Shown here: positions 2,790-7,540 of the stretch, in pieces | Numbering within the stretch: position 1 is the stretch's first letter | Layout of the letters: every line of letters begins with the position of its first letter | Virus record (IMG/VR): IMGVR_UViG_3300021255_000114 | Coordinates: 167,942 to 231,941 of that record | Length of the DNA: 64,000 nt | Strand: one strand, 5' to 3' | Source: a virus | Lineage: Duplodnaviria; Heunggongvirae; Uroviricota; Caudoviricetes | Position numbers and translations under genes: made by a program | Notes under the pieces: generated by a model | The model's database searches: none | Seen by the model: the letters and a program-made list of their open reading frames with translations, nothing else | What the model was told of the DNA's origin: nothing

Positions 2790-3134
2790 TGGCTGACTAG
2801 GTTGAAGGTAGGACGGCATACCCGGTGTCGCATAATCCGGAATCATCGAGAGGTGTATCCGGGTTCAAACAGGTGTCGTTGATAGACACAGGAACGCATG
2901 TAAGACTTCAGTTCGAATCTGAACGGGTCCACGATGTCACGTAGGAATGAATCCAGGACATGAAGGTCGCGGCCACCTTAAGGTCGTATTTGGGCTCGAC
3001 TTGGCTTTGATTGCGTGTTAGTATGGTGTAAGGAGATGTCTGCTAGTTGTTTAAATGGCAACACAAACTATCGTTATGCAATGGCTGCCTGATATTGGCA
3101 CCCAAAGCGAGTTGGCCACGAACTAAATCGTGGC
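2790..3134 (+). ncRNA. ssrA: Circularly permuted (two-piece) tmRNA
   Basis: Acceptor piece ends TTCAG-TTCGAAT-CTGAA-CGGGTCC-A (2907-2931); coding piece starts GGGCTCGACTTGGCTTTGA at 2992 (G3:U70); tag GNTNYRYAMAA* at 3057-3092 after TTAAAT; 2790-2798 pairs with 3110-3118. Confidence 0.9.
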
Positions 3135-3141
3135 AAATTTC

Positions 3142-3215
3142 GGTGCGTTAGTTCAGCTGGCTAGAATGCCGCCCTGTCACGGCGGAGGTCATGGGTTCGA
3201 GTCCCATACGCACCG
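3142..3215 (+). tRNA. tRNA-Asp(GTC)
   Basis: Full cloverleaf, loop CT-GTC-AC. Confidence 0.97.
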
Positions 3216-3234
3216 CTAAATCAATAAATTATCT

Positions 3235-3550: not shown

Positions 3551-3890
3551 GCTCTGGTGGCGGAATGGTAGACGCGAGGGAGAAGCGAAAGAAAGCGGAG
3601 TCCCTCCTGTTTTGGAAACAAGACAGTAAAAAATTGGATGAATTCGGCTGAAGGTTATGGGATCCGGAGGGCGAGCCAAGCATCAGATATATTTGATGAA
3701 GGTGTACAGACTACCTGAGCAGTTTAATCTGCTTAATAACAGGAAGTAGTTGCAATTAGTATTGCAATGAAAAAGCGTCCAATATTACCTAAACCCAAGT
3801 TGGGTATGGTACGAAGAGATAGTCGATGTTGATAACAGCTTAAAATCCCTTGCCCGCAAGGGCGTGTGGGTTCGAATCCCACCCGGAGCA
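3551..3890 (+). tRNA. tRNA-Leu(TAA) interrupted by group I intron
   Basis: Exons 3551-3581 and 3839-3890 join to AGGGA-CTTAAAA-TCCCT; acceptor GCTCTGG/CCGGAGC. Confidence 0.9.
3582..3838 (+). ncRNA. Group I intron (IA-like, P7.1/P7.2), no ORF
   Basis: P3 TTGGATG/CGTCCAA, P7 GACTA/TAGTC, GAATTCGG and GAGCCAAG core, J8/7 GAAGAGA, terminal G. Confidence 0.9.
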
Positions 3891-3896
3891 CATAAA

Positions 3897-5456: not shown

Positions 5457-5576
5457 GGTCTGATAGTTTAGTGGTTAGAATAACGTAATTATGGCTTCTG
5501 TATATGGAAGCATTGCAGCAATTATAAAATTTAGCCAGTCACGCCGTAGACGGAAGTTCGATTCTTCCTCAGACCT
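5457..5576 (+). tRNA. tRNA-Asp(GTC) with 48-nt insert (5486-5533) in anticodon stem
   Basis: Removing insert gives ACGGC-CAGTCAC-GCCGT; acceptor GGTCTGA/TCAGACC. Confidence 0.85.
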
Positions 5577-5770: not shown

Positions 5771-5901
5771 GACGATGTAGCTCAATTGGATTAGAGCACG
5801 TATTTCATGGCTTCTGTTTTACGGAAACCTCACAGCAAATAATGTCAATTTATGGTCTCTTAAACCCGTGGTTGTCGGTTCGAGTCCGGCCATCGTCCCC
5901 A
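5771..5901 (+). tRNA. tRNA-Lys(CTT) with 53-nt insert (5801-5853) in anticodon stem
   Basis: Removing insert gives CGGGT-CTCTTAA-ACCCG; acceptor GACGATG/CATCGTC; encoded CCA. Confidence 0.88.
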
Positions 5902-5991: not shown

Positions 5992-6070
5992 CCTGCAATA
6001 TCGCCACTGTCTTATACACAGTCATTAACAGCGTAATTGGTGTATCCAGGTTCGAGTCCTGGTTGCAGGA
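5992..6070 (+). tRNA. tRNA-Ile(TAT)-like, D arm absent/relocated
   Basis: Acceptor CCTGCAA/TTGCAGG; ACTGT-CTTATAC-ACAGT; T arm CCAGG/CCTGG. Confidence 0.8.
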
Positions 6071-6113
6071 CGAAAAAGTTTATATAAAAGTACAGTTAAC
6101 ACATTAGTATAAT

Positions 6114-6231
6114 ATACCAATGGCGGAACAGGTAAACGCACGGAGGCATCCGGTTCGCAGTTCGAGTCTGCAAGTAGGTAGGCATACCGAAAAAAGTGGC
6201 CACGATGGAGGTTCGAATCCTTCTTGGTATA
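6114..6231 (+). ncRNA. tRNA-like RNA with two T arms and no anticodon loop
   Basis: Acceptor ATACCAA/TTGGTAT; D arm; CGGA-GGCA-TCCG; GCAG-TTCGAGT-CTGC; GGAGG-TTCGAAT-CCTTC. Confidence 0.75.
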
Positions 6232-6315
6232 CAAAACAAGAAACACACGTCAGATATGTATGCTGATGAGAAAACCATTATCGTTGGCGCCGGCGGTGTG
6301 AGTGTGTTTCAATTT

Positions 6316-6391
6316 GGCTGGGTGGCGGAATTGGCAGACGCGCCACACCAAGGATGTGGTTTTTCTGTGGGTTCGACTCCCACCCCGGCTA
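6316..6391 (+). tRNA. tRNA-Leu(AAG), C33, short variable region
   Basis: CCACA-CCAAGGA-TGTGG; Leu-type D arm. Confidence 0.8.
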
Positions 6392-6403
6392 CACAGATAA
6401 ATT

Positions 6404-6516
6404 GATTGTATTACATAATGGTAATGAGGTGAGAGAAAAGGAGACGTTACGAACCTCGTTGAGAGGGAGTTGAATGAATATCCGCTGCGGTATCGGTTCG
6501 AATCCGATTGCAATCA
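6404..6516 (+). ncRNA. Expanded tRNA-like RNA, purine-rich centre
   Basis: Acceptor GATTGTA/TGCAATC; D arm CAT-AATGGTA-ATG; T arm ATCGG/CCGAT; 22-nt loop in anticodon position. Confidence 0.7.
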
Positions 6517-6640
6517 CGTGAAAAGGTGTAGAGTTTATTAAGAAGTTTCTTTCTTAGTGCACCAACAAGCCTTGCGGAAATCGATTATATCAAAAATGTA
6601 CATATCCGTTGCAAGGATGACCCAAATGAAACTTCAACCT

Positions 6641-6717
6641 CGGGCTGTATCTCCTCTCCCTGATAAGGAGTAGAAAGAGTAGTTGGTTACACGTTGGTTC
6701 GACTCCAACCAGCCCGA
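6641..6717 (+). tRNA. tRNA-Ile(GAT)-like, D arm absent/relocated
   Basis: Acceptor CGGGCTG/CAGCCCG; CTCC-CTGATAA-GGAG; AGTTGGTT loop 3' of anticodon arm. Confidence 0.82.
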
Positions 6718-6794: not shown

Positions 6795-7484
6795 ATGATT
6801 ATGGATAACAAAGAATATTTGAACAAAAGAAATTACACTAATTTTAAGAACGCAAGAAAACGTTTAAAAGAAAGACTTGTTGAATATAAGGGAGGAAAAT
6901 GTGAAATTTGTGGATATAATAGATGTATTAGCGCTCTTGAGTTCCATCATCTTGATCCTTCCCAGAAAGATTTTGCAATTTGTAGCGGTGATGTTAAATC
7001 GTATGAAACGATGCGAAAAGAGGTGGATAAATGTATTTTAGTTTGTGCTAATTGTCATAGAGAAATACATGAAAAAGAACATAAAGAAATTGATAGGAAG
7101 TATCTTGAAGAGGAGAAACGGATATTGGCAGATATAATGGTTCAAAGAGAAAACGGAAAACATTGTAAGATTAAGAATTCCTATGAAATATTAAAGTATA
7201 CAGACGTTTTTAAAGATATTGAGAACGGTATGCCAAGAGAAGAAATTTTTAAAAAGTATCACATAAACAACAAAACGTTTAACAAGTTTCTTAAAGAAAA
7301 CAACATCAATTATTTTAACGCCAACCGAGCGTTAATAAAACCAACTAAAGAAGAACTTGAGAAACTTTTAAAAACGAATTCTAAAACAAGTATTGGTCGT
7401 ATTTTTGGTGTTTCTTGTGGTGCTGTTATAAAATGGTGTAAAAAATATGAAATACCATTAAAAGAAGATAAGGAAAAAGAATAA
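6795..7484 (+). CDS. HNH homing endonuclease
   Basis: CEICG...LEFHHLDP...VCANCHREIH; C-terminal HTH. Confidence 0.88.
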   Translation: MIMDNKEYLNKRNYTNFKNARKRLKERLVEYKGGKCEICGYNRCISALEFHHLDPSQKDFAICSGDVKSYETMRKEVDKCILVCANCHREIHEKEHKEIDRKYLEEEKRILADIMVQRENGKHCKIKNSYEILKYTDVFKDIENGMPREEIFKKYHINNKTFNKFLKENNINYFNANRALIKPTKEELEKLLKTNSKTSIGRIFGVSCGAVIKWCKKYEIPLKEDKEKE

Positions 7485-7519
7485 TGTAGAAATCGGTGGT
7501 TCAAATCCACCCAAGCCGA
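7485..7519 (+). pseudogene. Orphan tRNA 3' half (Ile-like)
   Basis: GGTGG-TTCAAAT-CCACC-CAAGCCG-A with no matching 5' half seen. Confidence 0.75.
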
Positions 7520-7540
7520 CAGAAATAAATTTTAAACAAA

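What the first reader, a model, noticed from the sequence alone, without database searches (positions are those of the whole stretch)
5992..6717. Two tRNA-Ile genes with the D arm apparently moved behind the anticodon arm
Seen: Ile(TAT) 5992-6070 and Ile(GAT) 6641-6717 have perfect acceptor and T arms and canonical CT-NAT-AA/AC loops, but only 6-8 nt between acceptor and anticodon stems. A D-loop-like GG motif (TAATTGG; AGTTGGTT in GAGT/ACAC) sits in the variable-arm position. The same architecture in two diverged isoacceptors argues against decay. Inference: a rearranged cloverleaf that keeps the D/T elbow; a UAU anticodon would read AUA without TilS.
Basis: partly seen in the sequence, partly recalled or inferred. 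Interest (0 to 1): 0.85.

Follow-up and report, generated by a model that had tools for sequence, protein, structure and literature searches.

The report
Phage isoleucine tRNAs with rewired core
The two odd genes are conserved members of a large family of phage tRNAs that gene finders mostly miss: the anticodon arm sits inside the D stem and the D loop follows it, a non-cloverleaf fold I could not find described in any paper.

Summary
Window 5992-6070 (anticodon UAU) and 6641-6717 (GAU) have perfect acceptor and T arms and canonical anticodon loops, but no D hairpin.

They are not decayed. They belong to a family of at least 259 distinct sequences in IMG/VR viral contigs. About 80 cultured phages also carry it, mostly Streptomyces phages, plus crAss-like phages.

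The shared fold is:
- acceptor stem, then U8 A9 U;
- a 3-bp helix that encloses the anticodon arm;
- a D-loop-like segment (A14, R15, GG, N20, then Y48);
- the T arm.

All three helix pairs covary through Watson-Crick types. R15 and Y48 covary like the Levitt pair.

Anticodons are nearly all NAU (Ile or Met) or Arg. The base after GG is U in 197 of 201 NAU genes and A in 56 of 56 Arg genes. That matches the known U20 (Ile) and A20 (Arg) identity elements.

This 373-kb phage has no canonical tRNA-Ile, IleRS or TilS, and AUA makes up 32% of its Ile codons.

My best reading is that these are working tRNAs charged by host enzymes.

This scan already noted the same family on other genomes. I found no published description.

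The parts
5992..6070 (+). Rewired-core tRNA-Ile(UAU), subtype F1 (8-nt connector CATTAACA). Layout: acceptor 5992-5998 with 6063-6069; U8 A9 at 5999-6000; U at 6001; helix 5' strand CGC 6002-6004; C 6005; anticodon arm 6006-6022 (anticodon 6013-6015); connector 6023-6030; helix 3' strand GCG 6031-6033; U 6034; D-loop-like segment 6035-6045 (A14 6035, R15 6036, GG 6039-6040, U20 6041, Y48 6045); T arm 6046-6062; discriminator A 6070. CCA is not encoded.
   Evidence: Sequence. Parse. Model R1 69.7 bits, against 22 bits or less for this phage's canonical tRNAs. Rfam tRNA 31.4 bits with the D arm deleted. ARAGORN calls it only with a forced 94-nt fold that has a mismatched acceptor stem. Homologs of the same subtype occur in IMG/VR and in Streptomyces phages.
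6641..6717 (+). Rewired-core tRNA-Ile(GAU), subtype F2 (5-nt connector AGAAA). Layout: acceptor 6641-6647 with 6710-6716; U8 A9 at 6648-6649; U 6650; helix 5' strand CUC 6651-6653; C 6654; anticodon arm 6655-6671 (U-U top pair, anticodon 6662-6664); connector 6672-6676; helix 3' strand GAG 6677-6679; U 6680; D-loop-like segment 6681-6692 (A14 6681, R15 G 6682, GG 6685-6686, U20 6687, Y48 C 6692); T arm 6693-6709; discriminator A 6717. CCA is not encoded.
   Evidence: Sequence. Parse. Model R1 91.7 bits. Rfam tRNA 31.8 bits. ARAGORN misses it. About 85% identical to unannotated loci in Streptomyces phage LilMartin and in crAss-like Kehishuvirus tikkala.
6795..7484 (+). HNH homing-endonuclease gene 77 nt downstream of the GAU gene. 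It is context: a possible vehicle for the spread of these tRNA genes, not part of the tRNA.
   Evidence: PHROG HNH endonuclease, E = 3e-28. Homologs lie within 500 nt of a family member, on the same strand, in 17 of 187 viral loci. Random placement expects 4.8.
7487..7521 (+). Orphan 3' part of a canonical-looking tRNA (variable loop, T arm GGTGG/CCACC, acceptor 3' strand, A73), starting 2 nt after the HNH stop codon. It is a likely remnant of a displaced canonical tRNA-Ile.
   Evidence: Sequence. Its only matches in E. coli genomes are tRNA-Ile genes, and they are weak (89% over 28 nt, E = 1). The same order, rewired tRNA then HNH then orphan 3' part, occurs in L013 and L087.

Best explanation
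Both genes encode working elongator tRNAs for isoleucine with a rewired core. UAU would read AUA, and GAU would read AUU and AUC.

Proposed fold:
- After U8 and A9, a short D-stem-like helix (positions 11-13 pairing with 22-24, closed by a U-U pair) forms around the anticodon arm. It therefore extends the anticodon stem as one long arm.
- The strand leaving the helix carries the D-loop nucleotides: A14, R15, G18, G19, N20.
- That strand runs to Y48 and into the T arm.

I infer that U8-A14, R15-Y48 and G18/G19 with the T loop rebuild the usual elbow. The molecule would then keep the L shape and the acceptor-to-anticodon distance of a normal tRNA, while the D stem is turned end for end.

The host IleRS would charge these tRNAs. 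For the arginine-reading relatives in other phages, ArgRS would do so. The phage's own CCA-adding-type enzyme, or the host's, would add CCA.

What is shown: conservation, the secondary structure, the isolated covarying pair, the link between identity elements and anticodon, and non-redundancy within tRNA sets.

What is inferred: the three-dimensional contacts, expression, charging and decoding.
For: Family and fold:
- Pattern scans and a covariance model recover the family with a clean score gap. Members score 75-100 bits and the next best hit 34.7. In this phage there are two members, at 91.7 and 69.7 bits, against 22 or less for canonical tRNAs.
- On 105 distinct sequences, 98% of cells pair against 67% in shuffles. 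The covariation score is 0.813 against 0.208 (0 of 500 shuffles reach it) and 0.155 or less when partners are slid.
- RNAalifold returns the same structure unaided.

The enclosing helix, on 259 distinct sequences with the helix positions left free:
- Pair 11:24 is CG 173, AU 67, UA 10, GC 9.
- Pair 12:23 is a standard pair in 257 of 259.
- Pair 13:22 is CG 195, GC 50, AU 7, UA 7.

The isolated pair R15:Y48 is A:U 195 and G:C 53, with 11 others.

Core conservation: when homologs were collected by the anticodon arm alone, U8, A9, the helix, GAAA, A14, GG and U20 are invariant in 68 of 68 sequences, while all seven acceptor positions vary.

Signs of function:
- U33 and A37 are present in 258 of 259.
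- Anticodons are UAU 130, GAU 44, CAU 27 and Arg types 56. Only one odd near-identical pair of sequences has UAC.
- The base after GG is U in 197 of 201 NAU genes and A in 56 of 56 Arg genes.
- The discriminator is A in 201 of 201 NAU genes, and G or A in 53 of 56 Arg genes.
- These match the published bacterial identity sets: Arg uses A20, C35, U/G36 and A/G73; Ile uses A73, U20 and the anticodon (PMC9976931).

Non-redundancy:
- This phage carries tRNAs for nearly all amino acids but no canonical tRNA-Ile.
- Kehishuvirus has a canonical Ile(UAU) and this type as Ile(GAU).
- Only 2 of 189 members have a canonical tRNA with the same anticodon in the same locus.

Demand and supply in this phage:
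- AUA is 32% of Ile codons.
- It has no IleRS-type synthetase and no TilS.
- It has a CCA-adding-type nucleotidyltransferase ORF.
Against: - There are no expression, end-mapping, modification or aminoacylation data.
- The elbow contacts cannot be tested by covariation, because GG and the T loop never vary. No RNA 3D modelling was available.
- Several published E. coli IleRS determinants are not kept: C4-G69, C29-G41 and a fixed U12-A23.
- The enclosing helix is only 3 bp plus a U-U pair. Single-sequence folding does not favour it strongly; the minimum-energy folds differ.
- An unmodified UAU anticodon could also read AUG.
- The host is unknown.
Confidence: 0.75

Rival explanations
1. These are tRNA mimics that are not used in translation. 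They could be decoys that soak up host anticodon nucleases or other tRNA-targeting defences. Or they could be cleavage-resistant placeholder alleles that travel with HNH homing endonucleases.
For: Phage tRNAs are known to counter tRNA-targeting defences (PMC11555353, listed). HNH genes lie next to family members more often than random placement predicts. In L087 the cassette of tRNA plus HNH interrupts a canonical tRNA gene. The same tRNA cluster also holds tRNA-like RNAs that cannot decode.
Against: A decoy for an anticodon nuclease needs only the anticodon arm. Here the discriminator and the position-20 base track the anticodon exactly as the synthetase identity rules require. The genes also fill empty anticodon slots rather than duplicating canonical genes. 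U33 and A37 are kept in 258 of 259.
Confidence: 0.13
2. These are precursor forms that are cut and rejoined, by splicing or permutation, into a canonical cloverleaf tRNA.
For: Neighbouring tRNA genes in this phage do carry inserts or introns. Huge phages carry RNA-repair genes, such as a Thg1-like gene noted elsewhere in this genome.
Against: No single contiguous deletion gives a canonical order, and neither does a circular permutation. The 3' strand of the helix lies before the D-loop-like segment, so two cuts and two ligations would be needed (reasoned from the sequence). The covariation fits the direct fold: the helix encloses the anticodon arm and R15 pairs with Y48 across the uncut strand.
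Confidence: 0.04
3. These are decaying tRNA pseudogenes that lost the D arm.
For: Standard finders miss them or misfold them. Rfam scores are only just above threshold.
Against: There are hundreds of homologs in unrelated phages, with invariant core bases, compensatory changes in every helix, and acceptor stems that vary yet stay paired.
Confidence: 0.01

Closest known systems
Canonical bacterial and phage elongator tRNA (Rfam RF00005 cloverleaf), in particular tRNA-Ile(GAU) and tRNA-Ile(UAU)
   Same: 7-bp acceptor stem, A73, 5/7/5 T arm with TTCRA, 7-nt anticodon loop with U33 and A37, U8, A14, R15-Y48, G18 G19, and position-20 identity bases. Total length is 77-79 nt.
   Different: There is no D hairpin between position 9 and the anticodon stem. 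The D-stem-like helix encloses the anticodon arm, so its 13:22 end faces the anticodon stem. The D-loop bases come after the helix and take the place of the variable loop. The multiloop joins three helices rather than four.
Metazoan mitochondrial D-armless tRNAs, such as mt-tRNA-Ser(AGY) (PMC4013460, PMC9427863)
   Same: Only a few nucleotides separate the acceptor and anticodon stems, and there is no D hairpin. These tRNAs are functional despite a non-cloverleaf fold.
   Different: The mitochondrial forms have lost the D-loop/T-loop elements and rely on co-evolved mitochondrial enzymes. The phage family keeps GG, the TTCRA loop, a Levitt-like pair and a D-stem-like helix. It has normal length and must work with ordinary bacterial synthetases, EF-Tu and ribosomes.
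Allo-tRNAs and tRNA-Sec-like tRNAs with 8/4 or 9/3 acceptor/T configurations (PMC5389517)
   Same: Non-canonical tRNA folds found by mining genomes and metagenomes, partly in phages. They are missed by default annotation.
   Different: Those change the helix lengths of the acceptor and T branch but keep the cloverleaf order of arms. Here the order of core elements along the strand is changed.
Circularly permuted tRNA genes of Cyanidioschyzon merolae (from my own knowledge; not checked in a paper here)
   Same: tRNA parts occur in an unusual order along the gene.
   Different: In those genes the 3' half precedes the 5' half, and processing restores a canonical tRNA. Here the acceptor strands are in normal order and no permutation restores a cloverleaf.
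Bacterial and phage Y-RNA-like tRNA mimics, YrlA (PMC4201824)
   Same: Small phage-borne RNAs with tRNA-like acceptor and T modules, lying in tRNA clusters.
   Different: YrlA has no anticodon loop and works with Ro60. These genes keep a canonical anticodon loop, and this phage has no TROVE/Ro60 gene.

Membership tests
Canonical tRNA (Rfam RF00005) | 7-bp acceptor stem with an unpaired discriminator | tested here: met
   7 of 7 pairs in both genes, with discriminator A.
Canonical tRNA (Rfam RF00005) | T arm of 5 bp with a 7-nt TTCRA loop | tested here: met
   5 of 5 pairs in both genes, with loops TTCGAGT and TTCGACT.
Canonical tRNA (Rfam RF00005) | Anticodon arm with a 7-nt loop, U33 and a purine at 37 | tested here: met
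   Loops are CTTATAC and CTGATAA. The stem is 5 bp in the UAU gene, and 4 bp plus a U-U pair in the GAU gene.
Canonical tRNA (Rfam RF00005) | D arm: stem 10-13 with 22-25 closing the D loop, placed between position 9 and the anticodon stem | tested here: not met
   Rfam aligns the D arm as deleted. The covarying helix encloses the anticodon arm instead.
Canonical tRNA (Rfam RF00005) | Score at or above the Rfam gathering threshold of 29 bits | tested here: met
   31.4 and 31.8 bits with sensitive filters. Neither gene is listed by the default gathering run.
Canonical tRNA (Rfam RF00005) | Aminoacylated and used by the ribosome | not testable with these tools
   The helix is CGC/GCG in one gene and CUC/GAG in the other. 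All three pairs covary across 259 homologs.
Y48, then the T arm directly, with R15 and Y48 complementary | tested here: met
   A with U in the UAU gene and G with C in the GAU gene. Family counts are A:U 195 and G:C 53.
   Both genes have an NAU anticodon, U after GG, and A73.
   91.7 and 69.7 bits against 22 or less. Both genes were in the training alignment, but blastn links them to the family independently.
Metazoan mitochondrial D-armless tRNA | D arm replaced by an unpaired connector, with the D-loop/T-loop interaction elements lost | tested here: not met
   The connector bases pair with a downstream strand, and GG and TTCRA are invariant.
Circularly permuted or split tRNA gene | Cutting and rejoining the gene's parts restores a canonical cloverleaf | tested here: not met
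   The acceptor strands are in normal order. No single deletion or circular permutation puts the D loop between the two helix strands (from the sequence).
YrlA / Y-RNA-like tRNA mimic | The anticodon stem is replaced by a Ro60-binding stem, and a Ro60 (TROVE) gene is present | tested here: not met
   The anticodon loop is canonical. There is no Rfam Y-RNA hit and no TROVE gene in the phage.

The most novel reading that the evidence does not exclude
Phages carry a widespread and apparently undescribed class of fully functional tRNAs whose core is topologically rewired: the D stem is flipped and wrapped around the anticodon arm, and the D loop is moved to the variable-loop position. Ordinary bacterial IleRS, ArgRS, EF-Tu and ribosomes nevertheless accept them. 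The class would have switched between Ile and Arg identity by changing position 35 together with position 20. It may spread between unrelated phages in cassettes with HNH homing endonucleases that land in canonical tRNA genes.
Probability: 0.5. Interest if true: 0.92.

Novelty: new variant of a known kind. Interest (0 to 1): 0.82.

Why it matters
[quoted passage not shown] A natural and abundant exception that works with the standard bacterial translation machinery would change that picture.

It would matter in four ways:
- It would show how much of the tRNA core can be rewired while the L shape and the synthetase identity elements are kept.
- It would provide natural scaffolds for orthogonal tRNA design.
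- It would expose a systematic gap in annotation. ARAGORN missed 186 of 189 members, and cultured phage records leave them unannotated or misnamed.
- It would prompt a direct question: does the odd fold help phages escape tRNA-targeting defences or homing endonucleases?

The question can be tested directly, because cultured Streptomyces phages and a crAss-like Bacteroides phage carry these genes.

Tried and rejected
I tested it on 105 homologs and rejected it: one pair is unpaired in 103 of 105 and nothing covaries.
- **Single-sequence folding.** The minimum-energy folds keep the acceptor, anticodon and T helices but do not settle the core. z-scores are only -2.25 and -1.77.
- **Cellular genomes.** One pattern scan gave 120 rows, but only 17 are real members. 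About 280 chance matches are expected in 596 Gb. Sixteen of the real ones are on MAG contigs. One is in Achromobacter anxifer LMG 26857, inside a dense tRNA array with a permuted tmRNA. I therefore cannot claim true chromosomal, non-viral copies.
- **Other anticodons.** Scans in the same frame for G or U at position 35, for C35 with A or C at 36, and for A35 without U36 gave only chance hits, plus one degenerate UAC pair.
- **Pfam on neighbouring ORFs.** This gave nothing tRNA-related.
- **Literature.** Eight full-text searches found no description of this fold. That does not prove absence, because subscription journals are not covered.

Full report
**Setting.** The window is bases 167942-231941 of a 372,793-bp IMG/VR phage genome with direct terminal repeats, 38% G+C. 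Its first 10 kb, and the 4 kb before it, form a tRNA array with a permuted tmRNA.

**The observation.**
- Gene 5992-6070 has a 7-bp acceptor stem, a 5-bp T stem with loop TTCGAGT, and a 5-bp anticodon stem with loop CTTATAC.
- Gene 6641-6717 has the same arms with loop CTGATAA. Its anticodon stem has four Watson-Crick pairs and a U-U top pair.
- Only 7-8 nt separate the acceptor stem from the anticodon stem. About 22 nt carrying a GG motif separate the anticodon arm from the T arm.
- ARAGORN misses the GAU gene. It calls the UAU gene only by forcing a 94-nt fold with a mismatched acceptor stem.
- Rfam's tRNA model does not list either gene in the default run. With sensitive filters it aligns them at 31.4 and 31.8 bits, with the D arm deleted and a long insertion in the variable region.

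**Homologs.** blastn of the region against cultured phages gave about 85% identical 65-nt matches in 13 Streptomyces phages and in a crAss-like Kehishuvirus. They lie in tRNA clusters and are unannotated, or annotated as something else: Yaboi gene 148 is called tRNA-Val(aac). Lined up, these sequences share one layout. Two subtypes appear. F1 has the connector NNTTAACA and includes the window's UAU gene. F2 has the connector NGAAA and includes the GAU gene.

Later scans that left the helix bases free raised the total to 259 distinct full-length F2-frame sequences, again limited by rows. A second blastn found 80 cultured phage records, 77 of them Streptomyces phages and nearly all unannotated at this site.

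**The fold.** The consensus runs in this order:
- acceptor stem (7 bp);
- U8, A9, U;
- three bases that pair with three bases downstream of the anticodon arm;
- one C;
- the anticodon arm;
- a 5-nt or 8-nt A-rich connector;
- the 3' strand of the helix;
- U, A, R, N, N, G, G, N, N, A, C, A, Y;
- the T arm.

Evidence for this fold:
- On an alignment of 105 distinct members, the structure pairs 98% of cells against 67% in shuffles. The covariation score is 0.813 against 0.208 (0 of 500 shuffles reach it), and sliding the partners drops it to 0.155 or less.
- RNAalifold, given only the alignment, returns the identical structure.
- In the first set two of the three helix pairs were fixed by my search pattern, so I rescanned with those positions free. 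On 259 sequences, 11:24 is CG 173, AU 67, UA 10, GC 9. Pair 12:23 is a standard pair in 257. Pair 13:22 is CG 195, GC 50, AU 7, UA 7.
- A divergent F1 member (L127:3788-3865, Arg-UCG) has CAG/CUG at this helix.
- The R after A14 and the Y just before the T stem covary as A:U (195) or G:C (53). That is the behaviour of the Levitt pair R15-Y48.
- When I collected homologs by the anticodon arm alone, every core base was invariant in 68 of 68 sequences while all seven acceptor positions varied.

**How I read the fold.** The helix corresponds to D-stem positions 11-13 and 22-24, with 10 and 25 as a U-U pair. What it encloses, however, is the anticodon arm and not the D loop. The D-loop bases (A14, R15, G18, G19, N20) follow its 3' strand and run into Y48 and the T stem. 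The helix therefore extends the anticodon stem, and together they have about as many stacked layers as the D stem plus anticodon stem of a normal tRNA. The junction-facing end of the helix is flanked by U8 A9 on one strand and A14 R15 on the other. I infer that U8-A14, R15-Y48 and GG with the T loop rebuild the elbow. This is an inference: those bases never vary, so covariation cannot test it, and no RNA 3D tool was available.

**Evidence that these are working tRNAs.**
- *Anticodon loop.* U33 and A37 are kept in 258 of 259.
- *Narrow repertoire.* Anticodons are UAU 130, GAU 44, CAU 27 and Arg 56 (ACG, UCU, CCU, UCG, CCG). Dedicated scans for any other anticodon class found only chance matches and one degenerate UAC pair.
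- *Identity elements follow the anticodon.* The base after GG is U in 197 of 201 NAU genes and A in 56 of 56 Arg genes. The discriminator is A in all 201 NAU genes, and G or A in 53 of 56 Arg genes. Giegé and Eriani (PMC9976931) list A20, C35, U/G36 and A/G73 for bacterial Arg, and A73, U20 and the anticodon for Ile. Both F1 and F2 contain Ile and Arg members with this U-to-A switch, so the switch happened more than once.
- *They fill gaps.* This phage has tRNAs for nearly all amino acids but no canonical tRNA-Ile. Kehishuvirus pairs a canonical Ile(UAU) with this type as Ile(GAU). Only 2 of 189 members share a locus with a canonical tRNA of the same anticodon.
- *Demand.* AUA is 32% of Ile codons in this phage, about 24 per 1000 codons.
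- *Enzymes.* The phage has no IleRS-type synthetase or TilS, so host enzymes must charge these tRNAs. It does carry a CCA-adding-type nucleotidyltransferase ORF, which fits genes that do not encode CCA.

**Weak points.**
- Several E. coli IleRS determinants are not conserved.
- The enclosing helix is short, and single-sequence folding does not single it out.
- How a UAU anticodon avoids AUG is unknown.
- The host is unknown.

**Rivals.**
- *Decay* is excluded by the comparative data.
- *A precursor reprocessed into a cloverleaf* would need two cuts and two ligations, and it conflicts with the covariation.
- *A non-decoding mimic or decoy* remains possible at about 13%. It does not explain why the discriminator and position 20 obey synthetase rules, or why the genes fill empty anticodon slots.

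**A lead on spread.** An HNH endonuclease gene lies 77 nt downstream of the GAU gene. Two bases after its stop codon comes an orphan 3' part of a canonical-looking tRNA, whose only (weak) E. coli matches are tRNA-Ile genes.
- Homologs of this HNH lie within 500 nt of a family member, on the same strand, in 17 of 187 viral loci. Random placement expects 4.8, with a maximum of 15 in 1000 trials. Some of these loci are near-duplicates.
- L013 and L087 show the same order. In L087 the cassette of tRNA plus HNH sits between the anticodon stem and the variable loop of an otherwise complete canonical tRNA.
- This suggests a homing cassette that replaces canonical tRNA genes. I followed it only partly, and HNH genes are common in phage tRNA clusters in any case.

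**Prior knowledge.** Eight full-text searches found no description of this fold. A review of non-canonical tRNAs does not mention phages. A 2024 paper states that all known bacterial tRNAs are canonical (PMC11551756). Earlier agents of this scan described the same "rewired D-arm" family on other genomes (e1-1600370 and e1-282655). I reached the structure independently and tested it here.

**Verdict.** I class the genes as a new variant of a known kind (tRNA), with high interest and functional claims that still need bench tests.

Noticed in passing
window 6795-7521; also L013:8487-9050 and L087:4120-4905 (minus strand): The order is rewired tRNA, then an HNH endonuclease gene, then an orphan 3' part of a canonical tRNA. 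In L087 the cassette interrupts an otherwise complete canonical tRNA between the anticodon stem and the variable loop. HNH homologs lie within 500 nt of family members in 17 of 187 loci, against 4.8 expected.
   Followed up: partly
window 5457-5576 and 5771-5898: Two tRNA genes score 45.9 and 39 bits on the Rfam tRNA model and carry 59-nt and 66-nt inserts in the anticodon region. The inserts share a GGCUUCUGU ... CAGCAA motif. They are too short for group I introns.
   Followed up: partly
window 6114-6231 and 6404-6517: Two further tRNA-like RNAs have perfect or near-perfect acceptor stems, D and T arms, but no usable anticodon loop. One contains an extra internal hairpin that looks like a T arm.
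   Followed up: no
window 2842-3216: A permuted (two-piece) tmRNA gene: Rfam tmRNA_permuted at 52 bits, ARAGORN tag peptide GNTNYRYAMAA. It overlaps the start of tRNA-Asp.
   Followed up: no
window 3551-3891 (genome 171492-171832): ARAGORN in intron mode calls a tRNA-Leu(UAA) with a 257-nt insertion at position 32. This may be a group I intron.
   Followed up: no
genome G000:C1:144462-144860, outside the window: A 481-aa ORF matches the PolyA_pol / CCA-adding nucleotidyltransferase family (88.6 bits). The phage has no IleRS-type synthetase, TilS or Ro60 gene.
   Followed up: partly
L235:6534-6610 (Achromobacter anxifer LMG 26857, contig NZ_CAHLAR010000005.1): The only family member found in a cultured bacterium's assembly. 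It is a rewired Arg(CCG) with A after GG, G73 and an encoded CCA. It lies inside a dense array of 15 tRNA genes with a permuted tmRNA, which is probably a prophage or another mobile element.
   Followed up: partly
L001:1494-1571 (Streptomyces phage Yaboi, NC_048730.1 86686-86764): The gene annotated as tRNA-Val(aac) is a rewired-core tRNA with the loop CTTCTAA, that is Arg(UCU). Most other cultured phage records leave the homologous site unannotated.
   Followed up: yes
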